NCBI GenBank assembly: GCA_043718025.1
Contig: JAYSWN010000061.1
Coordinates: forward strand, 1 to 12,914
Reading direction: 5' to 3'
DNA length: 12,914 nucleotides
Source of the DNA: Pseudomonadota bacterium
Lineage (GTDB): Bacteria > Bdellovibrionota > FAC87 > UBA2466
The notes beneath the pieces were generated by a model. The model was not told where the DNA came from, ran no database searches, and was given only the letters and a program-made list of their open reading frames with translations. Position numbers and translations under genes: made by a program. Within the stretch, counting starts at the first letter, position 1. Every line of letters begins with the position of its first letter. Shown in pieces: positions 1 through 12,265 of this stretch.

Positions 1-932
1 TTTAGCTGCTCTCTGAAACCTAAAATTCGTTGCGGATGCCGACCAACAATGGACTCTTCTTTTCCGGGGGGACCTGCGGCCACGATGTGGCGTCCGGGGT
101 AATCCCGGCGCTGCTCCGAGATACCAAACTGTTTGGCTAGTTGGTCAAATTTATCCGGTGCCCCGGTCAAACGGGCATAGATATCGGGATCCATCGCGCG
201 AGAAATTAAAAGGTCGACGCGAAAGGGCTCATTACCCGTGCAGGCGTATGGATTTTCATTGGTTAAAAGCGCAATGGCTTCTGGTTTCAAAAAACGAAGT
301 AGATTAACGCCCACTTGGCCACCGCGCACCAGCGCGGGATTTACGGTGAATATGTCTGCCGACTGGCTGATCATATTAATGAGGTAGTTCAAAGCCGCCA
401 GTTTTACCTGTTCTTCTTTTCCTTGGGCGTACTCAACGGTCTTGATGTCGGGTTCAACTCCTTCTTTAGGCGTGACCGAGCTGGCCAGATCAATCGTAAA
501 TCCGCGCAAAGCACTGGCCCCGCCGTTGGCGATTAAAAACCGCTGAATGGCTTGCGACGCCGCCCCCGCAAACTTATTAAAATTAGTGAGGTAAAACTCT
601 TTAGCCTGTTTGATGGTGTTGGGGAGCGTCGCGCCAACCAGGCGACCAAAACCATCGATGAAGAGATTGCTAACTCTTGGGTTACCAAAGGCATCGCTCG
701 TAAACTCGACCAAGTTGTTGTTAACGTTTTTTATATTAGAAAAAGCGCCGGGAAGATCCTGGATCTGGTTCAAATTGATGAATGAGCCGTTATTGATCCC
801 GCGCTGACTACCCAAGCTGCCCACCTGGCGTCCAAAAACCAAACGCGAAGCGGCCGAAGCCGATTCTGGCAACGCAGCAAGAACTAACGCCAGAAGCATC
901 AGCCCTTTTAATTGTGTAGCTGTGTAACGCAT
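1..932 (-). CDS. Secreted hypothetical protein, 3'-truncated by the window edge (310 codons visible)
   Basis: Hand translation from ATG at 932 is stop-free to the window edge: MRYTATQLKGLMLLALVLAALPESASA|ASRLVFGRQ...RHPQRILGFREQL. It has a Sec-type signal peptide ending ASA. It is absent from the ORF track because the stop codon lies outside the window. Confidence 0.85.
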   Translation of the reverse strand, partial: MRYTATQLKGLMLLALVLAALPESASAASRLVFGRQVGSLGSQRGINNGSFINLNQIQDLPGAFSNIKNVNNNLVEFTSDAFGNPRVSNLFIDGFGRLVGATLPNTIKQAKEFYLTNFNKFAGAASQAIQRFLIANGGASALRGFTIDLASSVTPKEGVEPDIKTVEYAQGKEEQVKLAALNYLINMISQSADIFTVNPALVRGGQVGVNLLRFLKPEAIALLTNENPYACTGNEPFRVDLLISRAMDPDIYARLTGAPDKFDQLAKQFGISEQRRDYPGRHIVAAGPPGKEESIVGRHPQRILGFREQL

Positions 933-942
933 AAATTAATTC

Positions 943-1017
943 AAAAAACCAACTCGCCTTTCAGCGATTTGAGAGGGGGAGCCACGCGTACTTTTACGCG
1001 CGGCTAACGCTCTCAAA
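943..1017 (-). terminator. Double hairpin followed by a U-tract between the two secreted-protein genes (terminator/attenuator or mRNA stabiliser)
   Basis: Minus strand: long stem TTTGAGAG..AGCCGCGCGTA-AAAG-TACGCGTGGCT..CTCTCAAA (968-1017), then TCGCT-GAAA-GGCGA (GNRA loop, about 954-967), then GTTGGTTTTTT. Confidence 0.55.
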
Positions 1018-1022
1018 ACTAA

Positions 1023-1691
1023 TTAAAAACTACGCAAACTGCGAACCTGACTCGCTCCGCCGAAATTTCCAATTCCCTGTCCTAGAGGAGAACTCAAAAC
1101 CACCGCCGAGCTGGCCGGAAGGTTAGCTTGATTAAACTGCTGAAGCTCGAGAGCCGTTCCAGGCAACATCTGGATACTGCTACCGGCAAAAACGCTGCCG
1201 TTTAAGCTAACCAAGTTCTGGCGAATGGCACCGTTGGCATTTACAATCTGCCCATTCACAATCGCATTCTGATTCAACTCCACCACCTGACCCTGGCCAT
1301 TTAAGGCGATGTTGTTAAAGCCAGGAATGACCTGCAATTGACCAACATTTCCCAAAGCAATCTGATTAAAGGGTGATGCTGACGCGGGTCCAAAATCCTG
1401 AAGGTTATTCTGACCGTTGTTGCCGGCATTATTATTTACCGCCGGTGCGGCCAAATTATTTCGAACGACCCTTTGCGCTCTAGCGCGACCTTGTCCGCCG
1501 CCTCTCGCTACGCGTGCTCTACCACCTCTGCGAACCCTGCCTTGCGCCCGGACGGGGCCAGCACGCCTTACACCGCCGCGACCACGTCGCCCGCGCGCAA
1601 AAGCCTCTTCGTCTATTAGAGACAAAAGAAGTAGCAATACGAGACTAAAAACCCCTAACTTCAACCCTACGCGTGATTCGGAAACGGTCAT
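1023..1691 (-). CDS. Secreted low-complexity protein (222 aa): signal peptide, Arg/Gly-rich segment, Asn/Gln/Gly-rich C-terminal region
   Basis: GGAGG lies 7 nt upstream of ATG 1691, which is preferred over TTG 1727. Hydrophobic stretch LGVFSLVLLLLLSLI is followed by an AFA cleavage motif. Confidence 0.85.
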   Translation of the reverse strand: MTVSESRVGLKLGVFSLVLLLLLSLIDEEAFARGRRGRGGVRRAGPVRAQGRVRRGGRARVARGGGQGRARAQRVVRNNLAAPAVNNNAGNNGQNNLQDFGPASASPFNQIALGNVGQLQVIPGFNNIALNGQGQVVELNQNAIVNGQIVNANGAIRQNLVSLNGSVFAGSSIQMLPGTALELQQFNQANLPASSAVVLSSPLGQGIGNFGGASQVRSLRSF

Positions 1692-1796
1692 AAATATCCT
1701 CCACAACCTCAACGTTGCGTGCATCAACTTGGACTTCAGACGTTACTAAAACGTTCGAAGTATTCTGGGCGCCTTCTCATTGTTTCTTGTACTAAA

Positions 1797-1813
1797 TGCA
1801 TAACCTCGGCCAA
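1797..1813 (-). promoter_or_regulatory. Putative sigma54 (-24/-12) promoter for the 1691 and 932 genes
   Basis: Minus strand TTGGCCGAGGTTATGCA has exact GG-N10-GC spacing, as in the consensus YTGGCACGNNNNTTGCW. It lies about 105 nt upstream of the start codon. Confidence 0.55.
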
Positions 1814-1872
1814 CGCGCTTCGGTGCGAAATCGATTGCTAGAAAACTCGAGGGGTTAACTCAATAAAAGGGG

Positions 1873-1893
1873 CGTATTCACATCCAGAATACG
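1873..1893. promoter_or_regulatory. Inverted repeat CGTATTC-N7-GAATACG, candidate enhancer-binding-protein site
   Basis: Perfect 7-bp arms, 60-80 bp upstream of the sigma54-type -24 element. The half-site recurs at 1760-1767, 1982-1990 and 2731-2738. Confidence 0.45.
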
Positions 1894-2130
1894 GAGGGGG
1901 TGACACAAAGGGTATACAGACAACTTTTTATACAGTGATGATGAACTGTACGCGCCGCATACGATTTAAATAGAAGGGCAGCAGAATACGCCTAGTCACG
2001 GCCTGCTAAGAGGAGCTGGTAAAGAGTTGAAATAACAAGGAAGAGGCGACCAGGAATTTATAGAACCCCTCGGGAACCGCCCCCTCCGCAGAAATGCAAT
2101 TGGGCTAAGACGCTTTCACGCCGTCGAAAA

Positions 2131-2469
2131 TCAGGGAAAACCAGCCGGCTTCTGGCCAGCGGCATCCGCGGCTTTGAGCTCAGCCAAGGTTTTGTGCCCA
2201 GCCATGGGATCTTTCTTTTGATTGATCACCGGGGTGTCTTTGCAGCCATCTGTATTAAGCTGAATGTAGGCTTGGTATTGGGAAGGCAGATTTTCTTCAG
2301 AATAAATTGCCTCAACCGGACAGGCGGGAACGCAGGCGTCGCAGTTCACGCAGGTGTCGGGGTTGATATAAAGGATGCGGTCGGCTTCATGAAAGGCATC
2401 AACCGGACAAACCGTTACGCAGTCGGTGTACTTACAATCTACGCAGTGTTGGGTGACGATGTAACTCAT
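2131..2469 (-). CDS. fdxA: Ferredoxin, Azotobacter FdI/FdxA-type dicluster ([3Fe-4S][4Fe-4S]), 112 aa
   Basis: MSYIVTQHCVDCKYTDCVTVCPVD...INPDTCVNCDACVPACPVEAIYSEE...IQLN...KKDP contains CxxCxxxxCxxxCP and CxxCxxCxxxCP motifs and the typical C-terminal extension. An AAGGAG RBS precedes ATG 2469. Confidence 0.95.
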   Translation of the reverse strand: MSYIVTQHCVDCKYTDCVTVCPVDAFHEADRILYINPDTCVNCDACVPACPVEAIYSEENLPSQYQAYIQLNTDGCKDTPVINQKKDPMAGHKTLAELKAADAAGQKPAGFP

Positions 2470-2832
2470 CTTAAAGGTGCTCCTTGAATTGCGGAAAACT
2501 TTAGCACGCACTTTTCAAACCGGCGAGCGCATTTTTACCCTATCCCAGGAGCCCAAATGTCAGGCCAATCACGCCTCTGCTGCACCCCCAGCCCGATCTC
2601 CATTTCGATGCCTACCTTGGGGGCCCCACAAGGCGGGGCGATGATATTAAGACCATAATGACCCGGAAATGGTGCCGTAGATTGTAGACTCGGTGACGAC
2701 AATGGGCCCTGCCCCTAAGTGACTGAATCTGTATTCTGATCTCTCGCAAAACAGAGGTAAGTCTTTCTCCACCCAATAAAAGTTGCGCATTCTCTTACCC
2801 TCGGCAACGTCGCCACCACGCCCAGAATTCAC

Positions 2833-2849
2833 CTGGTATCCCCCTTGCA
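2833..2849 (+). promoter_or_regulatory. Putative sigma54 (-24/-12) promoter for the lipoprotein operon
   Basis: CTGGTATCCCCCTTGCA has GG-N10-GC spacing and a perfect TTGCA -12 element, about 115 nt upstream of ATG 2963. Confidence 0.65.
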
Positions 2850-2962
2850 CAAGTCCCCAGCGGTGGATCACTTTTCGTTAAGTGCGTCCCTTATGAGTTG
2901 TACGTCTTGTTGCGGTTATTGCTCGGGTGACGGTGGTCGCCTTGAGCTTGCAGAGGTTGAAA

Positions 2963-3736
2963 ATGCGCCACGGCTTTTTAAAACTGATTTTGGTTCTGTT
3001 GTCGTTAACGTTAATTGGTTGCGGAGCATCGTCCGAAACCAAAATCGCGGCGCCCACGGATCCGAATGCACCAAAAAAGCAGACGGAACCAACCGATCCT
3101 GGTTCGCCGGTTAAAGACGGCGTGCCCGACCTTACCGGTGCGGCAAACGTGCTTTTGACCAACATCGTTAAAGATGCCGCTTTTAATGAAACCTACCCTG
3201 ACCTCGAAGAGCTATTCGGTTTGGTCTACGGAAACTTGGTAGGAAATCCTAAACTTTTACTTAAATTGTCGGCCGCCACTTCGGCCGGGGTCACTCGCCT
3301 AACCGGAAATCTTCTCTTTGGCTTTGAAGACCAAAAGTATTGGCACGACACGAAACAGAATCACTTTGATAAAACGGGAGTGATTAACAGCTCGTCGTTC
3401 GACATCATTTTTCAAGACGACAACGTCGTCACCCGAGTCATGGCTGACCGTTCGGGCAATGCACTCGCCAACGGAAAACTTTTGTACCGCATTCGCACGA
3501 GCAGCGATGCCTTGGTTACCTATACGTATCCAGGAACTTGGAACACCACGACCCAAGGGGCTCGTCCAACGTATCAAGCCGCCGCTTGCACTCCCTTTGT
3601 GTGGAACTGCGGTAGCAGCGCCTGCGCTTCGCAAAACGATTTAGTCGCCCCATGCCAGTCGTACATCACGAGTGGAAACGGCAGCACTAAGGTAATGGGC
3701 ACTTTCGATTCAACGGTTTCAAATTGGGTGAAATAA
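2963..3736 (+). CDS. Hypothetical lipoprotein (257 aa) with Pro-rich linker and four-Cys C-terminal cluster
   Basis: GAGG lies 6 nt before ATG 2963. Signal peptide II MRHGFLKLILVLLSLTLIG|C (lipobox LIGC). Confidence 0.85.
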   Translation: MRHGFLKLILVLLSLTLIGCGASSETKIAAPTDPNAPKKQTEPTDPGSPVKDGVPDLTGAANVLLTNIVKDAAFNETYPDLEELFGLVYGNLVGNPKLLLKLSAATSAGVTRLTGNLLFGFEDQKYWHDTKQNHFDKTGVINSSSFDIIFQDDNVVTRVMADRSGNALANGKLLYRIRTSSDALVTYTYPGTWNTTTQGARPTYQAAACTPFVWNCGSSACASQNDLVAPCQSYITSGNGSTKVMGTFDSTVSNWVK

Positions 3737-3755
3737 ATTTTTTAGGGGGATGGCA

Positions 3756-4421
3756 ATGAAAGTAAATATGAACAGAAAATTAACGACAGTGGGCTTAGTA
3801 GCATTAGCCTTAACATTCTTAGTCGGATGCGGTGGCAATAAAACGGTTGCTCCCCCTCCCCCGATACCACCATCTAATCCTCAGTTTGGTGGCGGATCGG
3901 CCGGTTGTGGTGGCGGTGGCGCCCAAACGCTCAACAGTTACTTCACGAGCCTGATCAATGTGACGCAAGCTCAACAAACGATTCCTTCATCGTTGACCTT
4001 AACGTTTAACCCGAACGGCGGCACCCAAGTCGTTGGACCCCAGCCTGGTCAAAACGTGCAAGTGTCCGGTTGTTTTAACTGGGCCGATCTTCCGCTGTAT
4101 TTCACCCAACAAGGTGGAAACTTCGGGCAGACCCCCACTAATATCCAAACTGCGATTCAGATGCAGTCACAGGGTGTAGTGACCGTGCAGTCGAATCAGC
4201 AATCGGCTTTCGTCAGCAACATGGTTTTGTTTGGCCAAACGTCGCTCCCCTCGTGGGGCGCCGCTTCCACTCCGACCCAGATCACCATGTTCGTTCAGCA
4301 AGCGTACTTAGGGTTCGGCGGAAGACTGTATGTCACTCAGCCAGCTCAGGTCTACGTCAACGGACAACCCATGATGCCTACCGGCCAACATGCGCCGGCA
4401 TACGTCACTCCACAGCAATAA
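3756..4421 (+). CDS. Hypothetical Gln/Gly/Pro/Thr-rich lipoprotein (about 221 aa)
   Basis: The AGGGGG RBS (3744-3749) fits ATG 3756 best; 3750 and 3768 are alternatives. Lipobox LVGC (Cys codon at 3828), followed by a poly-Pro/Gly linker. Confidence 0.85.
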   Translation: MKVNMNRKLTTVGLVALALTFLVGCGGNKTVAPPPPIPPSNPQFGGGSAGCGGGGAQTLNSYFTSLINVTQAQQTIPSSLTLTFNPNGGTQVVGPQPGQNVQVSGCFNWADLPLYFTQQGGNFGQTPTNIQTAIQMQSQGVVTVQSNQQSAFVSNMVLFGQTSLPSWGAASTPTQITMFVQQAYLGFGGRLYVTQPAQVYVNGQPMMPTGQHAPAYVTPQQ

Positions 4422-4433
4422 GGATTCTTAGCC

Positions 4434-4685
4434 ATGACTTCCAACGAAGTTGAAAAGCCAAGGGTCATTCACGTGGATTTCAAGGCAGAGAAGAGGAGAA
4501 AAGCTCCTACCTCTGTGCCAAAATCTAATCCTGAATCGGCTCAGTTAATCGACGCCTCGATTCATCCGATCCGGGCATGGGAACAGTTTAATTTTCGCGA
4601 CCGCATGCTCGATATTTCGGGTTGGGGCATTCGAATCCTAGTTTTCGTCACCTTGGTGGGCCTTGGCTACTTAGTATTGGGGTAA
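4434..4685 (+). CDS. Small hypothetical membrane protein (83 aa), single C-terminal TM helix
   Basis: An AAGGA RBS overlaps the previous stop codon. C-terminal hydrophobic stretch WGIRILVFVTLVGLGYLVLG. Confidence 0.7.
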   Translation: MTSNEVEKPRVIHVDFKAEKRRKAPTSVPKSNPESAQLIDASIHPIRAWEQFNFRDRMLDISGWGIRILVFVTLVGLGYLVLG

Positions 4686-4691
4686 GCAACG

Positions 4692-4763
4692 ATGGATAGA
4701 CAAGTCTCACGCCTCATCTTGGGCGCCATTCTTCTGGGAATGATTCTGCTCATTACCCAATAA
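4692..4763 (+). CDS. Candidate 23-aa hydrophobic micropeptide MDRQVSRLILGAILLGMILLITQ
   Basis: ATG lies 6 nt after the previous stop, with GGGG 9 nt upstream. One clean TM-like stretch, and the stop codon falls just before the terminator. Confidence 0.5.
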   Translation: MDRQVSRLILGAILLGMILLITQ

Positions 4764-4845: not shown

Positions 4846-5385
4846 CTACTTCTTTTTAGTCGAGAACGACTTGCCCTTGTATTTTGCATTAAACTTTTCA
4901 ATCACGCTGTCGGTAAGGTCTGAGCCCGCTTCGGCGTAGAGCACCGCGCCTTCATTTTTCTCAACGATAAGCTGGTAAGATTTTTCTTTGCCGATTCCTT
5001 CGATGATGGAGCGAAGCTCATCGATCAAAGGTTTAGTGAGCTCACGTTCCCGCTTCTGCAAGTCAGCCTGAGACTCCGAGGCACTCTTCTGAAATTCCAT
5101 AAATTTTTTCTGCAGCTCTTGCTGTTTAGCCGCTTTGGCCGAGTCGTTCAAGATGGCGGATTTTTTTTCGAACTGCTCGGCCTCTTTCTGCAATCCCGCC
5201 TGCGCCTTTTCAAGCTCAGTGCGTTTAGCCGCCACATCTTTTTCAAGCTGCGCTTTGGCGGTTTTCCCCGCATCAACCTGCTGCAGTGCTTTCTGAAGAT
5301 CAACGTAAGCCACTTTTAGGGTTGCAGTCTCGGCTGCGGTAGCCAAACGGCTTAACAAAACTACGGCGAGTAAAAACGATTTCAT
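4846..5385 (-). CDS. skp: OmpH/Skp periplasmic outer-membrane-protein chaperone (179 aa)
   Basis: Signal peptide; KVAYVDLQKAL...GK.AK.QLE N-terminal motif; long coiled coil; YQLIVEK...VLYA...DLTDSVI C-terminal motif. Lies directly downstream of bamA, with a GAGG RBS before ATG 5385. Confidence 0.95.
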   Translation of the reverse strand: MKSFLLAVVLLSRLATAAETATLKVAYVDLQKALQQVDAGKTAKAQLEKDVAAKRTELEKAQAGLQKEAEQFEKKSAILNDSAKAAKQQELQKKFMEFQKSASESQADLQKRERELTKPLIDELRSIIEGIGKEKSYQLIVEKNEGAVLYAEAGSDLTDSVIEKFNAKYKGKSFSTKKK

Positions 5386-5397
5386 GCACACCTCAAA

Positions 5398-7737
5398 TTA
5401 GAATGCCGGACCGATTGTAAAATAAAATTTGGACACGTTAGACTTAACAATAGGGTAGCCAAATTCGAAACGCAAGGGACCGATAGGCGTGAACCAGCGG
5501 AAACCCCAGCCAACGTTGGCAAATAACGCGGGGCCGCTTCTAAATGGAAGGTCAAAAGCGTTACCCGCATCAAAGAAAATTACCCCGCGAATGCGGGCCT
5601 CTTTCAGCAAAGGAAACTCAATCTCGGCATTCAGCAGCACTTCATTGTGGCCGCCGACGGTAAATTGCTTGCCGCCCATGTTTCGATCTTGGGCAAGCTG
5701 AGACAAATTGCCCGAGTTATTCGCACTTAGGGTTTGCGCGGGACCAATCGATAAGAAGTCATAACCACGCAAACTGAACAGACCACCCTGAATGAAAAGT
5801 TCATTAATCGGCACCGAGCTACCCTGAATGTTGGCACCGGTGACGTTTAGGCGAAAAATAAAATCCCAAATAATGGGGTGAAAGAACTTAGCCTGAGCCC
5901 GCGTTTTAAAGAACTGGCGCGCCCCACCCAACCCCGCGTACTCCGTACTCAAGCTCAGGTAGCTACCGGTACGCGGGTCGAAACGATCGTCGCGTTTGTC
6001 GTAGACCAAGTTGGCGCTTACTGAACTTGCCACGCCATTTACCGAACTCAACGGAATCAATGAACGGTCAATAATAGTGCCTTCTGGCACGTAAGAGTTC
6101 TCTAATTTGTAAGTTAAAAATAGGTTGGTAAACTCAAGTACCGGATGGCCGAGTTTCACATCGAAGCCGGTCTTAATCTCTTCAAAAGTAGGAATGTCTT
6201 CGATCGCAATTAGGTTACGTCGTAGCTGAAAAAGATCGCCGCCCAAACTCCAATTAGAGTAACCGACGTAGGGTTCCTGAAAGCCCAGAGCAAACTGGTA
6301 ATACTTGCGGCCCGTCAAAATTTCTGCCGATAAACTGGCAACCTGACCGTTGCCCAAGAAGTTGTTTTGCGAAAGCTGAGCATTGATCGTGAAGCCGATA
6401 TTGCCCGAAGCGTAACCAGCACCCACCACCAGCTGACCCGTTGAGCGCTCTTTAACCTTAATTTCAACGTCAACAATGTTAGGCGCTACTTTAGAAGTGG
6501 CCTGGTGAAACTCCACGTTGTCGAAAAAGCCCAAGCGAACCACGTTTTCGCGGCTCTCACGCTTTTTTGTGCCGTTAAATAGCTCGCCCTCATGAATGGT
6601 GAGTTCGCGCCGGACCACTTTGTCTTTAGTGCGGGTGTTGCCGGTAACGATGATCTTGCCGATAAAGACCCGCTCGCCCTTGTCGATATCAAAAGTGACA
6701 TCCACCGTGCGGGTTTCGTCATGAATCATCGGCTGCGGCACCACGTTGGCAAATGCGTAGCCCAAGTCAGAATATTTTTCGGTGTAGCGCAACGTCTCTT
6801 TACGCAGCGTTTCCGTATTAAAGACCTCACCCGGTACCAGGGCTAAATCTTCCACCAGCTCTTGCCGGCGGTAGAGAAGCTCGCCCCCAAAATCTACTTT
6901 GCCCACGTTATATTGCGCGCCTTCATCCACAAAAAAGGTGATGTAGACCCACTTTTTGTCGGGACTGACGGTAACTTCGGGTTTACCGAAACGTGCCCGT
7001 ACGTAGCCTAGAGTGCCGTAGTAATAGCCAAGTGTGGCGATATCGCGTTCGAAAACCGCTTCACGGTAGGAACCGCTACCGGTCAAGAAGGAGAAAAAGC
7101 CACCTTCTTTGGTCTGCATCACTTTTTTCAGATCCTCAATAGGCATGACCTTGGCGCCCACGATGTTGATCTGCTTCACCTGAACTTTGTCGTTTTCTTC
7201 TACAGCGAAGGTAACCTTAACCTCGCCACGAATTTTGTCGTAATCGAGCGTGTAGCGAACGTCGGCTAGGTAGAAACCCTTTTCCTCGTACTTTGCGGTC
7301 AATTTCTCCACGCTCTGACTGAGCTTTTGAATGTCGAGGACTTCGTACTCTTTGACTAAGATAAGATCTTTTAGGTCATCTTTTTCAATGGCATTTAAGC
7401 CGGTGTATTCAATCTTAGAGATGGTCGGTTTTTCAACCACGACAAAAACCAAACGCACGCCGCCGGCAACCGTCTCCTCTTCAGCCTCAATGCCTTCGAA
7501 GTAGCGAAGCTTAGCGATGGCCCGAATGTCTTCGGCCACAACGTCACGAGACAGATCGGTGCCGGGCTTGGTCCGAACGCGCGAGAGAATGGCGTCGGAT
7601 TCAATTTTTTTGTTACCGCGAACCACCACGTCAATGACGGCACGCGACTCGGCAAAAACCCAGGCGGGAAATAGGCCTAACAAAAGCGCAAAAAGGATGC
7701 TGGGCGCAATGAATCGCCCCGAGATGCCAAGCTGAAT
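5398..7737 (-). CDS. bamA: Outer membrane protein assembly factor BamA (Omp85; POTRA repeats plus beta-barrel). Start inferred at ATT 7737; the ORF track start is TTG 7683
   Basis: POTRA motifs (VRGNKKIESDAI, YEEKGFYLADV, YSDLGYAFANV, GNTRTKDKVVRRE, RLGFFDNV), KERSTG barrel start, LRGY loop-6 motif, GFRWFTPIGPLRFEFG and a terminal Phe. Identity is secure; the start codon is inferred. Confidence 0.96.
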   Translation of the reverse strand: MQLGISGRFIAPSILFALLLGLFPAWVFAESRAVIDVVVRGNKKIESDAILSRVRTKPGTDLSRDVVAEDIRAIAKLRYFEGIEAEEETVAGGVRLVFVVVEKPTISKIEYTGLNAIEKDDLKDLILVKEYEVLDIQKLSQSVEKLTAKYEEKGFYLADVRYTLDYDKIRGEVKVTFAVEENDKVQVKQINIVGAKVMPIEDLKKVMQTKEGGFFSFLTGSGSYREAVFERDIATLGYYYGTLGYVRARFGKPEVTVSPDKKWVYITFFVDEGAQYNVGKVDFGGELLYRRQELVEDLALVPGEVFNTETLRKETLRYTEKYSDLGYAFANVVPQPMIHDETRTVDVTFDIDKGERVFIGKIIVTGNTRTKDKVVRRELTIHEGELFNGTKKRESRENVVRLGFFDNVEFHQATSKVAPNIVDVEIKVKERSTGQLVVGAGYASGNIGFTINAQLSQNNFLGNGQVASLSAEILTGRKYYQFALGFQEPYVGYSNWSLGGDLFQLRRNLIAIEDIPTFEEIKTGFDVKLGHPVLEFTNLFLTYKLENSYVPEGTIIDRSLIPLSSVNGVASSVSANLVYDKRDDRFDPRTGSYLSLSTEYAGLGGARQFFKTRAQAKFFHPIIWDFIFRLNVTGANIQGSSVPINELFIQGGLFSLRGYDFLSIGPAQTLSANNSGNLSQLAQDRNMGGKQFTVGGHNEVLLNAEIEFPLLKEARIRGVIFFDAGNAFDLPFRSGPALFANVGWGFRWFTPIGPLRFEFGYPIVKSNVSKFYFTIGPAF

Positions 7738-7820: not shown

Positions 7821-8474
7821 TTACTGCAATTCAATTTTTGCGCTAGCCAATTCGAGAGGTTCTTCGAGCGGAAACTTCTTACGTACCATCTCGGAAATCC
7901 ATTTATTTAAATGTTTTCCCAAGTGAGTCGCCCAGACCTTGGAGAGGCCTCGGTTTAATTGCCGAGTAATGTAGTCCTCGAAGGAGACCGGTACAAACTT
8001 GCCCAGGTGAAGGCGTCCCAGTTCAGTTGATTTTACAATAACGGTAATATTTTTTAGATCTTTAGAGTCTTCCGGAAACGAGACCTCGGCTTTCACCTTG
8101 GCCCATTCCGAGCCCGCCCCTAGCCACCCCCGCGTCGGCACGCAAAGTGTGCTTGACGAGCGAAGACTGCCTTCGGCGTAGGTATTGATGGTCTTAAGCT
8201 CAGCCTCAATCTCAACGGTGCCTTTATCGGTGAGGTTTAAATCGAGCTTGGCAACCTGCCCCTCGACGGTGAACAAGTAGTAGTAGCGGCCGTTACACAG
8301 ATAGCCTTCCCATTTGGCTTCGTCTGACCACTTCCCTTTTAGCGTTTTAAGCTCTTCGCGCATGCCCACTTCGGCCTCATCCCAAGGCAAGTCCCGTAGG
8401 TCTCCTGCGAAAGCAGATGCAGCCGTAAAAATCAGAGCGGCGGTTAGGCCCCTCAGCCCCAAATAAGCACTCAT
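7821..8474 (-). CDS. Secreted hypothetical protein (217 aa)
   Basis: G-rich RBS before ATG 8474; signal peptide MSAYLGLRGLTAALIFTAASAFA; two Cys; beta-strand-like core and a long amphipathic C-terminal helix. Confidence 0.8.
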   Translation of the reverse strand: MSAYLGLRGLTAALIFTAASAFAGDLRDLPWDEAEVGMREELKTLKGKWSDEAKWEGYLCNGRYYYLFTVEGQVAKLDLNLTDKGTVEIEAELKTINTYAEGSLRSSSTLCVPTRGWLGAGSEWAKVKAEVSFPEDSKDLKNITVIVKSTELGRLHLGKFVPVSFEDYITRQLNRGLSKVWATHLGKHLNKWISEMVRKKFPLEEPLELASAKIELQ

Positions 8475-8610
8475 GTTTTGTCCCCCCAATAAACCAACAC
8501 TTAGGCTCCGACGGTGACAATCGGCTTTAGCGAAGTCAAAGGGAGTTTCGGGGCCAGAAAGAAGTCGTTAACCAAAGAGTTCCGAGTAGTTCCTAGCCCC
8601 AAAACAAACG

Positions 8611-8832
8611 TCAAGAGGCCAGCTGGTTGGGCTCGGTACTCAACACCGAGGCGAGCCGCGCCAGATTTTTTGTCTTCACTAAACCGATGCGCCCATTGAG
8701 CCAACGCCGCAGCGTAGTCTTGTGAACGCCAGCCTCTTCGGCCACCCAATAGTGTTTGAGATCCAGCGCACGAATGCGCTCGCGCACTTTCTGCGAATCC
8801 AGTTTAGTAAGCTGTGAATGATTTGGGGTCAT
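8611..8832 (-). CDS. XRE/Cro-C1 family helix-turn-helix transcriptional regulator (73 aa)
   Basis: VRERIRALDLKHYWVAEEAGVHKTTLRRWLNG...NLARLASVL fits the XRE HTH pattern. AGGAG lies 5 nt before the ATG. Confidence 0.88.
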   Translation of the reverse strand: MTPNHSQLTKLDSQKVRERIRALDLKHYWVAEEAGVHKTTLRRWLNGRIGLVKTKNLARLASVLSTEPNQLAS

Positions 8833-8956: not shown

Positions 8957-11900
8957 TTAAGGACGGGTAGTGAAGAAGACCGGCGACGTTTGGCAGTTAC
9001 GGCCATCGACCGTTGAAGACTGGCCTTGAGCCGAATAAAAAGTGCTGGGGGCTAAACTGGTAACCAAAACGCTGTGCTGTGTGACATTCGATTGGCCGGT
9101 CGCCGTGCTACCGCGGTTGTTTCCCAAGCCGTAACGCACCACCGAGGTGCTTGCCACCGTAGTACGCCAGTTTACCGACGCCTGGGTCGCGGTGATTTGA
9201 GCCACCGAGAAATTACTGCACGTGAAACTGCGATCCACCGTCCAATTGTAAGTGGCCGGGATAATCGACTGGTTGCCCACCACGTCGACCGCCCAAATCG
9301 CAATCGCATGCGCCCCGTCGGCAGTCACCGCCGCGGTCCAAGGAGAGCTACAAGCCACCGGCACCGCACCGTCTAAACCGCACAAGAAGATGGCCGCCGC
9401 ATCATCGGCGTGAAAATTTGCGGTAAGAAACACGGTGGCGGTTGGCGAGGTCGAGGGCGTGGTTGAGTCAATGGTGACGACGGGCCCTTGGCGATCTACC
9501 GACCAGGCATAACTCACGGCTTGACCCACGCTACCGCCGGCGCTGGCGGCAAAGATCGAAATAGAATGGGCGCCATCGCCCAATAGGTTGAACGACACCG
9601 GCGAAGCGCAGGGCAAGGGCAATTGACCATCCAGTGCACAAGAAACGCTTCCGGCGTTGGTTACGGAAAAACTAAGAACCATGGAATCAAGGTTGGTCAC
9701 ACTTTGCGAAGGCGCGGCGACGCCCAACGTAACCACCGCCGCCGGGGTTTGCACCTTCCAGCCGAGGGTTGAAACCTGACCCGCTTGGCCGCGCAGATTG
9801 CGGGCGAAGATCTTAAAGCTGTGGGCGCCATCCATTAATGCCGTCGCTTCATAGGGGCTCGAGCACGGAGAAAATGCCGCCGCATCTAAAGCGCATTCGA
9901 AATCGGATCCGTTCGAGCTAAACGCGAAACTGGCGGTCTGATTTGCCGACACCTCGCCTTCACTTACGGTCGACGAGAGCACCACGGTTGCGGCCGGCGC
10001 TGCCACCGTCCAAGCGAAAGTGACCGCGGCGCCTTCTGCTCCGGCCACGTTCACCGCTTTCACCGCAAATAGATGAGCCGCGTCGGTTAAGCCGCTGACG
10101 CGATGAGGGCTCTGACAAGGAGCAAACGCCGCATCATCCAAAGCGCAACGAAATTCAACCGCGTGCTGCCCGGTGAACGAAAATTCGTTCTCTTGCGCGG
10201 CGGTCACGGGTCCAGGATTGGTCACCGCAACCAGCGCTACCGTAGCGGTCATCGCGACGGTCCATTCGTAAACCACGCTCGGAGAAATATTTCCCGCCAA
10301 GTCACGGGCGCGCAACTGTAAACGGTGGCGCCCTTCAAACAAGTCATTCACCAGTAGGGGTGAGGAGAACGGCAATTCAGCTCCCCCATCCAGTTGATAA
10401 AACAGCGTGGCCGACGGTTCACTGAGAACATCCAGAGATAAGCTCGTGCTTTCGGTCACGGTATCAGCCGCAATCACAAAATCCAAACTCACGATTGGCG
10501 CCGAGAGGTCAACTTCCCAAACGGCGCTGGCCGTGGTTTGGTTGCCCGCAACGTCTTGCGCCACCACCACCAGTTGATGTTGACCTTCCGAAACCAAAGA
10601 AAAAGAAATTGGGCTCTCGCAAGGGGCGGCGACGCCCGCATCAAGTGAGCAGAGGTAAGTGCTGCTCTCGCTAGCGCTAAACGAAAACGAGGCTACGGTT
10701 TGGTTGGAGGGCGAGGCCACTGGGGCACTACGTTGCACCTGTACCATTGGGCCTTGTGAATCCACCGAAAAGTCGTAACTAAACTGCCCAGCGTTGCCGG
10801 CCAAATCTTGACCGCTCACGACCAGCCGGTGAGTGCCGTCGGCGACGTTGGCAAGGACTAAAGGGGAACCGCATGAAGCTAAGGCCGCGCCATCTAGCTG
10901 GCACGCCAAAGCACTAAGCGGTTCCAACGCGGAAAAGCTCAGCACCAAGTTGCCTCGGTTTAGAATGAGAACGTTCGGGTCAGCCGCGAAAGAAAATTGC
11001 GGCGCAGTAAGATCGATTTTAAAGCGAAATTCGTACGAAGGCGAGGTGCCGCCCAACTCATCCACGGCATAAATAGCAACTTTGTGTTCCCCTTCAGCCA
11101 GATTCTTTAGGGTCCAAGGCGAAGTGCAAACCGAAGCCTCGCCCCCATCGATTGCGCAGCGAAAAGTGGCGGCGCGGTCGCTGGCAAATTCAAAACTTGC
11201 GGTCGTTTGGTTAGACAGCTCGGCGGGCCCGCGGCTAACGCTCAAGACCGGTTGACTTCGCGCTACCAAAAACGCGTAGACCAGTGGAGCTTCAAGCAGG
11301 CTCGGTTTGGTAGCTCGGATGGTGACGATGTGTCCCCCCTCGGCCAGACCCTTTAAGACTAAAGGCGACTTGCACGCGAACAATTTATCGTTGTCGAGCT
11401 GGCAAGAAAAAGTGCGGGCCTTTTTGCTGCCCGAGGTATCGACAAACGCGAGCGATAAAAAATCGCTCCCGAAAATAAAACTGCCGGGCTCCGCTTTTTG
11501 CAGAACCAGTTTTGCAGCGTGGCCTAGCAGGTAGGCGTCGTAACGGAGCACCGGGCCCACCACTTCAGAAGTCTTGGCGCGAATTAGCACGGTGAGCCAG
11601 CCCGCCTTCAAATTGGTGACCAGTAGCGGTGACCGGCAAGGGGTAAAAATTTTGCTGTTTACGGCGCACTCAAAAGTATCGGCCACCGGAGCGGCATGAA
11701 AACGCAATGCCACCGTACTTCCGGGGTTCACCCAGTCGCTTGGTGCGACTTGATCGAGAACTACCATGGGCGAAACGGGAACCGCTTTTACGATGCCGTC
11801 GCGACCCCAAAGCAATTCTCCGGTAAGCAGACGAACCGGAGCGCGCCACCAAATCTCAAAGCGGCCGTTGCGCTTGAAACAGTCGCGTACGTATTTATGA

Positions 11901-12265
11901 AAAGATTGTTTTTCGGATTCAAAAAGGAAGTTGAGATTGATCTCCAACACCGCCCCGGCGGCACTCTCAGAAACCCAAGTCGCGTTTCGACGAAGCGCAC
12001 CATTTGAAAAACGGCTCTTGCCATTCCAGGCCAGGTGCAGCGTGGTGAGATCAAACTTCTTCTCGAAGCCAAGAACAAGTTTAGCCGTGTCCTTAGCGGA
12101 AAAATCCGCCGGCGGAAAATTGGGGAATACCAAGCGGTATTGGCTGCGATGAAACTTCGCGTGATGGCGAAACCAGTTCCGGTGCGCCGACGCCGAAGCG
12201 CTGACACACAGGCCGATAAGCAGCCACCAGCGAATCAATTTATGACCAAAAAATGCCACCACCAA
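8957..12265 (-). CDS. Large secreted protein (about 1100 aa) with ten tandem bacterial Ig-like repeats and a C-terminal FN3-like domain; putative adhesin/surface protein
   Basis: Signal peptide ending ASASA; about 85-aa repeats with core C-x-LD-x6-C-x-SP-x5-L-x2-G-x-H-x5-A-x-D-x2-GN; final domain VAQITATQASVNWRT...VRYG...HSVLVTSLAPSTFY. Start is TTG 12265 or GTG 12262/12259. Confidence 0.9.
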   Translation of the reverse strand: MVVAFFGHKLIRWWLLIGLCVSASASAHRNWFRHHAKFHRSQYRLVFPNFPPADFSAKDTAKLVLGFEKKFDLTTLHLAWNGKSRFSNGALRRNATWVSESAAGAVLEINLNFLFESEKQSFHKYVRDCFKRNGRFEIWWRAPVRLLTGELLWGRDGIVKAVPVSPMVVLDQVAPSDWVNPGSTVALRFHAAPVADTFECAVNSKIFTPCRSPLLVTNLKAGWLTVLIRAKTSEVVGPVLRYDAYLLGHAAKLVLQKAEPGSFIFGSDFLSLAFVDTSGSKKARTFSCQLDNDKLFACKSPLVLKGLAEGGHIVTIRATKPSLLEAPLVYAFLVARSQPVLSVSRGPAELSNQTTASFEFASDRAATFRCAIDGGEASVCTSPWTLKNLAEGEHKVAIYAVDELGGTSPSYEFRFKIDLTAPQFSFAADPNVLILNRGNLVLSFSALEPLSALACQLDGAALASCGSPLVLANVADGTHRLVVSGQDLAGNAGQFSYDFSVDSQGPMVQVQRSAPVASPSNQTVASFSFSASESSTYLCSLDAGVAAPCESPISFSLVSEGQHQLVVVAQDVAGNQTTASAVWEVDLSAPIVSLDFVIAADTVTESTSLSLDVLSEPSATLFYQLDGGAELPFSSPLLVNDLFEGRHRLQLRARDLAGNISPSVVYEWTVAMTATVALVAVTNPGPVTAAQENEFSFTGQHAVEFRCALDDAAFAPCQSPHRVSGLTDAAHLFAVKAVNVAGAEGAAVTFAWTVAAPAATVVLSSTVSEGEVSANQTASFAFSSNGSDFECALDAAAFSPCSSPYEATALMDGAHSFKIFARNLRGQAGQVSTLGWKVQTPAAVVTLGVAAPSQSVTNLDSMVLSFSVTNAGSVSCALDGQLPLPCASPVSFNLLGDGAHSISIFAASAGGSVGQAVSYAWSVDRQGPVVTIDSTTPSTSPTATVFLTANFHADDAAAIFLCGLDGAVPVACSSPWTAAVTADGAHAIAIWAVDVVGNQSIIPATYNWTVDRSFTCSNFSVAQITATQASVNWRTTVASTSVVRYGLGNNRGSTATGQSNVTQHSVLVTSLAPSTFYSAQGQSSTVDGRNCQTSPVFFTTRP
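9230..11767 (-). repeat. Ten diverged Ig-like protein repeats within the large gene
   Basis: Cores: CAVNSKIFTPCRSP, CQLDNDKLFACKSP, CAIDGGEASVCTSP, CQLDGAALASCGSP, CSLDAGVAAPCESP, YQLDGGAELPFSSP, CALDDAAFAPCQSP, CALDAAAFSPCSSP, CALDGQLPLPCASP, CGLDGAVPVACSSP. Boundaries are approximate. Confidence 0.9.

What the first reader, a model, noticed from the sequence alone, without database searches (positions are those of the whole stretch)
1..4763. Candidate undescribed sigma54-controlled surface-structure system of two divergent operons of unknown exported proteins
Seen: two outward-facing operons flank the ferredoxin, each behind a GG-N10-GC promoter with the same upstream 8-mer. All products are exported or membrane-bound: two Sec proteins, two lipoproteins, and two small TM proteins (one tentative). 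Two of them are strikingly Asn/Gln-rich and charge-poor. bamA-skp and an Ig-repeat protein lie next door. Inference: a co-regulated, stage-specific surface fibre, coat or adhesion apparatus. Linkage to bamA-skp may be coincidental.
Basis: inference. Interest (0 to 1): 0.7.

Follow-up and report, generated by a model that had tools for sequence, protein, structure and literature searches.

The report
Conserved predator lipoprotein pair under sigma-54
In a predatory-bacterium lineage, two uncharacterised lipoproteins with predicted small barrel folds sit behind a strongly conserved sigma-54 promoter, and because relatives of the first are made just as Bdellovibrio attacks prey, they likely act at prey contact, while the neighbouring leftward genes are a separate unit built around a likely cytochrome.

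Summary
The genes and both sigma-54 sites are real, but this is two units, not one fibre or coat system.

Rightward: two lipoproteins (C, D) and a small membrane protein (E). The -24/-12 site before C is kept in 36 of 36 loci. C and D are predicted small eight-stranded beta-barrels, not amyloid. C occurs in 37 of 37 other genomes of the class. It is homologous to Bdellovibrio bacteriovorus Bd2302 (96%) and Bd1842. Published supplements show both induced at prey entry, as RNA and as protein. Bd2302 also has the sigma-54 site and a partner lipoprotein gene, but that partner is not detectably related to D.

Leftward: A is cut by the contig end; full-length copies carry CxxCH (17 of 17), so A is likely a secreted c-type cytochrome. 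B is a paralogue of A's N-terminus. The two promoters keep different upstream elements across the class. Linkage to bamA-skp is lost outside the class.

Best reading: an undescribed, outer-membrane-tethered lipoprotein module used at committed prey attachment. Its biochemical role is inferred only, and sigma-54 is not shown to be the general prey-entry regulator.

The parts
1..932 (-). Gene A, N-terminal half (cut by contig start): Sec-exported protein, about 590 aa in full, with one CxxCH; likely c-type cytochrome of an unnamed family
   Evidence: (remainder at the end of contig C180 carries CMVCH; CxxCH in 17 of 17 longer orthologues)
1023..1691 (-). Gene B: Sec-exported, Arg-rich then Asn/Gln-rich; paralogue of the N-terminal domain of A; patchy
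   Evidence: hhalign 94.2%, E 1.2e-7; 5 of 35 related loci
1797..1812 (-). Predicted sigma-54 -24/-12 promoter of the B-A unit
   Evidence: site at 9 of 11 or better before A in 20 of 23 loci, at 8 of 11 or better before B in 6 of 6
1874..1892 (.). GTATTC-N7-GAATAC inverted repeat; predicted activator-binding element of the left promoter
   Evidence: GTATTC/GAATAC in 24 of 26 left upstream regions, shuffled mean 2.9, max 9
2131..2469 (-). 4Fe-4S dicluster ferredoxin; conserved neighbour, no conserved sigma-54 site
   Evidence: Pfam Fer4; 33 of 35 related loci
2731..2738 (+). GTATTCTG copy 103 nt before the right promoter; kept in the own genus only
   Evidence: 3 of 4 genus loci; 9 of 36 class-wide, within the shuffled range
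2834..2849 (+). Predicted sigma-54 -24/-12 promoter of the C-D-E operon
   Evidence: TGGT-N7-TTGCA in 36 of 36 loci
2963..3736 (+). Gene C: lipoprotein (Cys20), Pro-rich tether, predicted 8-stranded beta-barrel with a four-cysteine insertion; homologue of Bd2302 and Bd1842
3756..4421 (+). Gene D: lipoprotein (Cys25), almost uncharged, predicted 8-stranded beta-barrel; follows C in the class and in family f4
4434..4685 (+). Gene E: small protein with a C-terminal membrane segment and a short conserved V(I)HV(D/N)F motif; class-specific in the loci examined
   Evidence: 32 of 35 related loci plus G008
4692..4763 (+). ORF F: 23-aa hydrophobic peptide, tentative
   Evidence: look-alike only in L027
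4794..4816 (.). Terminator-like hairpin between the C-D-E operon and the convergent bamA-skp operon
   Evidence: A-run before and T-run after

Best explanation
C and D are lipoproteins with predicted small beta-barrel folds, encoded behind a conserved predicted sigma-54 promoter, that are likely made in a burst at prey contact and likely act from the predator's outer membrane at the committed attachment site by binding prey envelope. Shown here: gene order, promoter conservation, lipoboxes, homology of C to Bd2302 and Bd1842. Shown in published Bdellovibrio data: induction of Bd2302 and Bd1842 within 15-60 min of mixing with prey. Predicted: the folds. Inferred: outer-membrane sorting (no Asp at +2; E. 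coli rule, recalled), surface exposure, a C-D complex, the binding role, and that this organism is a predator. The leftward B-A unit is a separate sigma-54 unit for a likely secreted monoheme cytochrome with its own predicted activator site.
For: C is single-copy in 37 of 37 other class genomes. A merged profile finds it in f4 10/10, f8 24/24 and f13 14/14. C then D is kept in 34 of 35 class loci and, unlinked from bamA, in G008 and 9 of 10 f4 loci. The promoter is kept in 36 of 36 class loci, in 9 of 10 f4 loci directly before C and in 41 of 54 Bd2302-family rows, against 0-19% for control genes. C versus Bd2302 family: hhalign 96.2%, E 2.7e-9, 160 columns. Bd2301, Bd2302 and Bd1842 are on the 'predatosome' sheet of PMC2797640 (2.5x, 2.9x, 1.9x). 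In PMC12546842 Bd2302 protein rises by 15 min, peaks at 1 h (log2FC 1.59, FDR 8e-21) and is back at baseline by 5 h; Bd1842 log2FC 2.29, entry-peak cluster. Lipid anchor, flexible tether and small barrel match the build of surface lipoproteins NHBA, fHbp and Tp0751, which are among the fold hits. The own genome has Tad RcpC genes.
Against: No expression or phenotype data for this organism. Fold hits are all Z 8.1 or less and tied among unrelated barrels. D is not detectably homologous to Bd2301 (0.6%; f4 D 14.9%), and Bd2301 protein showed no change (2 peptides, imputed). The tree does not place C closer to Bd2302 than to Bd1842. The family was not found in 46 of 46 genomes of family f10 or in several other families. 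The own genome lacks detectable matches to 14 of 17 strongly entry-induced Bdellovibrio genes, including Bd0816 and Bd3459, and no flagellin was found (92% complete). Induction is modest (about 3-fold). Sigma-54 sites before exported orphans are common in this genome and are not enriched at top predatosome genes (4 of 17 against 7 of 51, p 0.45).
Confidence: 0.42

Rival explanations
1. Self-protection: C and/or D are periplasmic PliC/MliC-like inhibitors that shield the predator's own wall from lysozymes or its own muramidases while prey wall is being cut.
For: D's best natural fold hits include PliC (Z 7.5 and 7.4), PhiA (7.1) and Neisseria ACP (6.5); entry-phase timing of the C homologues.
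Against: These hits tie with OmpA-type and avidin barrels. No Pfam MliC/PliC match. The inhibitor motif (SxSGxxY, recalled) is absent from the D consensus.
Confidence: 0.15
2. Carrier role: the barrels bind lipids or other hydrophobic prey-derived ligands (avidin/lipocalin-like) and serve envelope growth at the switch to growth phase.
For: Avidin-type barrels among the top hits for both; Bd1842 lies directly before a TIGR04552 gene and an acyltransferase; nearest named Atlas clusters for Bd2302 are lipocalin-like, but at 0.78 only.
Against: Protein falls after 1-2 h while growth continues. Bd2302 is not induced significantly in prey-independent growth. No cavity analysis was possible.
Confidence: 0.15
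3. C-D are outer-membrane accessory lipoproteins of an entry-phase gliding-type (Agl/Glt) machine.
For: Bd0420, head of the gliding cluster, has a perfect sigma-54 site, and the cluster peaks at 45-60 min like Bd2302 (PMC12546842 passage).
Against: No gliding genes were recognised beside C-D in the loci mapped (neighbours were only partly annotated); no similarity to Cgl/Glt proteins in Pfam, NCBIfam or fold searches.
Confidence: 0.1
4. One reading: all seven genes form one co-regulated surface fibre or coat.
For: Both units have sigma-54 sites and are neighbours in 22 of 35 loci; D and B are N/Q-rich; GTATTC precedes both promoters in the own genus.
Against: Globular barrel models; no curli-type repeat found; A is a CxxCH protein; different upstream elements class-wide; A not found in 5 of 5 genomes tested outside the class, four of which have the C family.
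Confidence: 0.08
5. C-D-E are lineage-specific helpers of the BAM/Skp outer-membrane assembly pathway.
For: Adjacent to skp in 34 of 35 class loci.
Against: Convergent orientation with a terminator between; separated in G008 and in all f4 and Bdellovibrionaceae loci examined, where skp is followed by same-strand genes instead; transient expression of the homologues.
Confidence: 0.07

Closest known systems
Bdellovibrio bacteriovorus Bd2302-Bd2301 (hypothetical predatosome lipoproteins) and Bd1842
   Same: C family by profile (96.2% and 92.7%); sigma-54 site; for Bd2302 the four-Cys region, the C-terminal LGTF motif and a second lipoprotein gene behind it.
   Different: About 20% identity; D versus Bd2301 not detectable; no E-like gene looked for there; orthology to Bd2302 versus Bd1842 unresolved. 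None has a described function in the papers searched.
Small-barrel surface lipoproteins NHBA, fHbp, Tp0751
   Same: Lipid anchor, flexible tether, 8-stranded soluble barrel (Z 5.6-6.0).
   Different: No sequence similarity; no handle domain recognised; export across the outer membrane (Slam) not tested.
PliC/MliC/PhiA/ACP lysozyme inhibitors
   Same: Barrel topology (Z up to 7.5 for D), exported.
   Different: C and D are about twice as long; no Pfam match; recalled inhibitor motif not conserved.
Avidin/streptavidin-type barrels and QHNDH alpha domain 2
   Same: Best hit for C (Z 7.8, rmsd 2.6, 96 aligned).
   Different: 15% identity; no evidence of biotin binding; Z within the background range.
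Unnamed CxxCH family of Planctomycetota, Myxococcota and phages, often fused to PSCyt1 (for A)
   Same: ESM Atlas feature score 0.96-0.97 to unnamed clusters; 0.84 to PSCyt1-bearing clusters.
   Different: A carries an N-terminal B-like domain and no PSCyt1; family function unknown.
Curli (CsgBA/CsgEFG)
   Same: Divergent operons, exported N/Q/G-rich small proteins.
   Different: No curli repeats, no CsgG-like gene in the locus, globular folds.

Membership tests
Sigma-54 (RpoN) promoter | Conserved GG at -24 and GC at -12, ten bases apart, upstream of the gene | tested here: met
   36 of 36 before C; 20 of 23 before A, 6 of 6 before B
Sigma-54 (RpoN) promoter | Genome encodes RpoN and AAA+ activators | tested here: met
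   rpoN core-binding domain at the end of contig C78 (DNA-binding domain missing there; present in 40 of 40 relatives); 14 strong activator domains
Sigma-54 (RpoN) promoter | Mapped start site and RpoN dependence | not testable with these tools
   needs 5'-end mapping and a promoter or rpoN mutant
Bd2302/Bd1842 lipoprotein family (gene C) | Profile homology across the barrel | tested here: met
   hhalign 96.2%, 160 columns; cross-controls with D families 0.5% or less
Bd2302/Bd1842 lipoprotein family (gene C) | One-to-one orthology with Bd2302 | tested here: inconclusive
   architecture and partner gene favour Bd2302; tree leaves own class, f4 and Bd1842-like in an open fork
Bd2301 family (gene D) | Profile homology | tested here: not met
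   0.6% (class plus f4), 14.9% (f4 alone); same position and lipobox only
Curli / functional amyloid | Imperfect Q-X4-N-X5-Q repeats (pattern recalled) and a repeat-built fold | tested here: not met
   0 matches in B, C, D; no Pfam curlin hit; barrel models for C, D; B was not folded
c-type cytochrome (gene A) | Exported protein with conserved CxxCH | tested here: met
   17 of 17 longer orthologues and the own genome's remainder on C180
c-type cytochrome (gene A) | Cytochrome c maturation gene in the genome | tested here: met
   one PF01578 match, E 1.3e-31
c-type cytochrome (gene A) | Cytochrome fold and covalently bound heme | not tested
   no Pfam or PDB sequence match; A was not folded
PliC/MliC lysozyme inhibitors | 8-stranded barrel | tested here: inconclusive
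   Z 7.4-7.5, tied with unrelated barrels
PliC/MliC lysozyme inhibitors | Family profile match and inhibitory loop motif (motif recalled) | tested here: not met
   no Pfam match; motif absent from consensus
Slam-exported surface lipoproteins | Surface display through a cognate Slam translocon | not tested
   no Slam search was run
BAM accessory lipoproteins | BamB-E domains and stable link to BamA | tested here: not met
   no family match; gene linkage lost outside the class; binding itself untested

The most novel reading that the evidence does not exclude
C-D is an ancient, sigma-54-triggered prey-contact module shared by three lineages of Bdellovibrionota, and supplies the unidentified protein of the attachment plaque or entry portal seen by cryo-tomography; its conserved promoter elements point to the activator that senses prey.
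Probability: 0.12. Interest if true: 0.85.

Novelty: new variant of a known kind. Interest (0 to 1): 0.5.

Why it matters
The molecules at the committed predator-prey junction of Bdellovibrio, and the regulator of early invasion genes, are open questions. The 'predatosome' list holds over a hundred hypothetical genes with little to rank them. This work picks out a lipoprotein family whose gene, promoter class and partner-gene arrangement persist across three deep lineages despite about 20% identity. Its members can be deleted in a standard laboratory predator. It also supplies two different predicted activator sites and an unnamed exported CxxCH protein family. It is not a new fibre system.

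Tried and rejected
Raw GG-N10-GC counting: chance level. Sigma-54 as general prey-entry regulator: 4 of 17 strongly induced genes against 7 of 51 control unit heads; the 17 were chosen by me, 16 from two of the supplement parts read plus Bd3459 from recall, and two of the seven control hits are Bd2302 and Bd1842 themselves. C and D as paralogues: 0.9%. Foldseek on PDB: no match at E 0.001 for C or D. PDB sequence search with the A profile: none. The first D-versus-Bd2301 comparison was spoiled by C rows in the Bd2301 alignment and was redone. The 54 rows include two that are not full C genes; three loci without the partner have a different lipoprotein-like or exported gene there and two go straight to xerD. 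Complex prediction for C with D was not available, so binding is untested. No RNA holder was listed for this window. Bd2301, Bd2302 and Bd1842 were not found in the supplements of PMC11003981 or PMC6561027; identifier formats may differ. Main-text searches for Bd2301, Bd2302, Bd1842 and their accessions gave no relevant paper (one term was a guessed locus tag). Three look-ups of earlier scan findings returned nothing. The class name was not established.
Full report
Setting. The window is the whole of contig C192 of G000. A same-genus record is titled 'Bdellovibrionota bacterium'. The class holds 38 genomes in two families; I did not establish its name. I call the genes A (1-932, minus), B (1023-1691, minus), ferredoxin (2131-2469, minus), C (2963-3736), D (3756-4421), E (4434-4685) and F (4692-4763). 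Only the ferredoxin has a Pfam family.

Synteny. One C query found 35 of 37 other class genomes, and a profile found 37 of 37, single copy. In the 35 neighbourhoods fetched first, the order ferredoxin(-) C D E skp(-) bamA(-) is nearly fixed: ferredoxin 33, D 34, E 32, skp 34, bamA 33 (several misses are contig ends). The left side varies: A in 22, B in 5, and a penicillin-amidase gene next to the ferredoxin in 14. In G008 and in family f4 (another class) C-D sits elsewhere, and outside the class skp is followed by same-strand genes. So C-D is the conserved unit and the bamA link is class history.

Promoters. GG-N10-GC is at chance level in the window. By conservation both sites are real. TGGT-N7-TTGCA precedes C in 36 of 36 loci. 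A site at 9 of 11 or better precedes A in 20 of 23 loci; two of the exceptions have B in front, carrying the site, and B has one in 6 of 6. Control genes reach 9 of 11 in 0 of 33 to 6 of 31 loci. The genome has rpoN, cut by a contig end, and 14 strong activator domains. Such sites are common here: 70 strict matches against 27-46 at wrong spacings, and 64 of 595 unit heads with a signal-peptide-like start against 43 of 1121 others (crude rule). 'Sigma-54 plus exported orphan' is therefore not by itself a sign of one system.

Upstream elements differ. GTATTC/GAATAC lies before the left promoter in 24 of 26 regions (shuffled 2.9) but before C in 9 of 36 (shuffled 3.3, max 12). TGT-N9-12-ACA lies before C in 23 of 36 (shuffled 5.7, max 12) but before the left promoter in 7 of 26 (4.7). 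Kin are not independent, so these counts overstate significance. In the own genus GTATTC also sits 102-103 nt before the C promoter in 3 of 4 loci, and the window's C region lacks the TGT-ACA element. Shared control is thus possible in this genus only.

Left unit. Full-length A is 570-700 aa, and all 17 longer orthologues aligned carry one CxxCH; the own genome's second half lies at the end of contig C180 and has it too. A is in 33 of 37 class genomes and was not found in 5 of 5 genomes tested outside. It has no Pfam or PDB sequence match. ESM Atlas places its C-terminal part with unnamed phage and Planctomycetota clusters (0.96-0.97) and, more weakly, with PSCyt1 fusions. B resembles A's N-terminal domain (94.2%). 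A heme maturation gene exists. A is likely a secreted monoheme cytochrome; its reaction is unknown.

Folds. The C model (pLDDT 89.6) and the D model (70.5) are small antiparallel barrels after a proline-rich tether. Best matches are Z 7.8 (C) and 8.1 (D), shared among avidin, PliC, OmpA-type and designed barrels, within the tool's background range. C and D are not detectably related. D's low charge is conserved (median 4.7%), but no curli-type repeat was found. A fibre or coat is not supported.

Link to Bdellovibrio. Adding f4 and distant hits gave weak matches in family f8. These resolved into two families. Genome G153 has them at coordinates that match Bd2302 and Bd1842 in the HD100 table of PMC3627812. 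The C profile aligns to the Bd2302 family over 160 columns (96.2%, E 2.7e-9) and to the Bd1842 family over 69 (92.7%). Bd2302 is in 36 of 36 f8 and 17 of 18 f13 genomes; 41 of 54 rows have a sigma-54 site and 45 of 54 a partner lipoprotein behind (two rows are not full C genes). That partner, Bd2301, is not detectably homologous to D. A tree of 45 rows does not settle which paralogue is C's orthologue. The merged profile found nothing in 46 of 46 f10 genomes and several other families.

Published data. PMC2797640 (passages and three supplement look-ups): Bd2301 2.5x, Bd2302 2.9x and Bd1842 1.9x up at 30 min, all on the predation-specific sheet. PMC3627812 (passages, supplement rows): all three low in attack phase and at 3 h. 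PMC12546842 (passages, supplement rows): Bd2302 and Bd1842 proteins peak at 45-60 min; Bd2301 unchanged on two imputed peptides. PMC11003981 (passages, supplement search) and PMC6561027 (supplement search only): not found. The cryo-tomography preprint 10.1101/2022.06.13.496000 (passages) describes an attachment plaque and portal without naming their proteins in the passages read; its supplements are closed. PMC13200544 (passages) reports Tad/Kil systems in most Bdellovibrionota. PMC3526173 (passages) notes the large role of sigma-54 in delta-proteobacteria. No main text in the library names these three genes; subscription papers are not covered.

Limits. Sigma-54 sites are not enriched at top entry-induced genes, so the promoter does not explain the timing in general, though the entry-phase gliding cluster head Bd0420 and Bd1542 have perfect sites. 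G000 has Tad RcpC genes, no flagellin found, and matches to only 3 of 17 entry-induced Bdellovibrio genes. Its lifestyle, and the transfer of timing from Bdellovibrio, are inferred. C-D binding is untested.

Verdict. Observation partly confirmed; interpretation partly supported. The durable finding is an undescribed lipoprotein family with a promoter and gene pairing kept across three lineages and with prey-entry timing in the one lineage studied. A contact-site role is the most likely reading (0.42); self-protection, ligand carriage and gliding accessory roles remain open. Interest 0.5.

Noticed in passing
window 4846-7683; L069-L088: In this class skp ends the valS-lolE-lolD-bamA-skp run, whereas in most other families of the phylum examined skp is followed by same-strand genes of sizes that fit lpxD-fabZ-lpxA (names inferred, not searched). 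Where this class keeps those genes was not checked.
   Followed up: partly
window 8957-12265: 1102-aa exported Ig/Big_13 repeat protein with a C-terminal fn3-like domain, in a more GC-rich stretch (55-60%); seen beside this block only in one other genome of the genus.
   Followed up: partly
window 7821-8489 and 8611-8832: A 217-aa exported orphan and a small XRE-type HTH gene sit where relatives have lolD-lolE-valS: a genus-level rearrangement.
   Followed up: partly
5' leader of C in L026-L060 (window 2850-2962): Leaders of 70-130 nt often end in repeated GTGG/GTTG words before the ribosome site; possibly a post-transcriptional control element.
   Followed up: no
A and B orthologues, mature N-termini: A very Arg-rich stretch (RRRGRFFRR-like) follows the signal peptide cleavage site in most A and B proteins; unusual for Sec substrates.
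   Followed up: no
L168 (Bd0420) and L171 (Bd1542): Perfect sigma-54 sites before the entry-phase gliding cluster head and before Bd1542; the Bd0420 site lies inside the annotated start, so the gene may begin later.
   Followed up: partly
L102, L103, L104 (family f4): Tandem duplication of C, the first copy with its own sigma-54 site in all three; G243 has two partner genes.
   Followed up: partly
L064:10207-10938, L065:1626-2357, L066:8053-8835: A further exported beta-rich orphan directly upstream of C in three f4 loci; no Pfam or NCBIfam family.
   Followed up: partly
G000 whole genome: No flagellin found (92% complete) although two class relatives have it; three RcpC matches against one in G153.
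   Followed up: no
G000 whole genome: 18 of 173 sigma-54-like sites have GTATTC/GAATAC 50-200 nt upstream, mostly before exported Gly/Asn-rich orphans; the full inverted repeat occurs only before B.
   Followed up: partly
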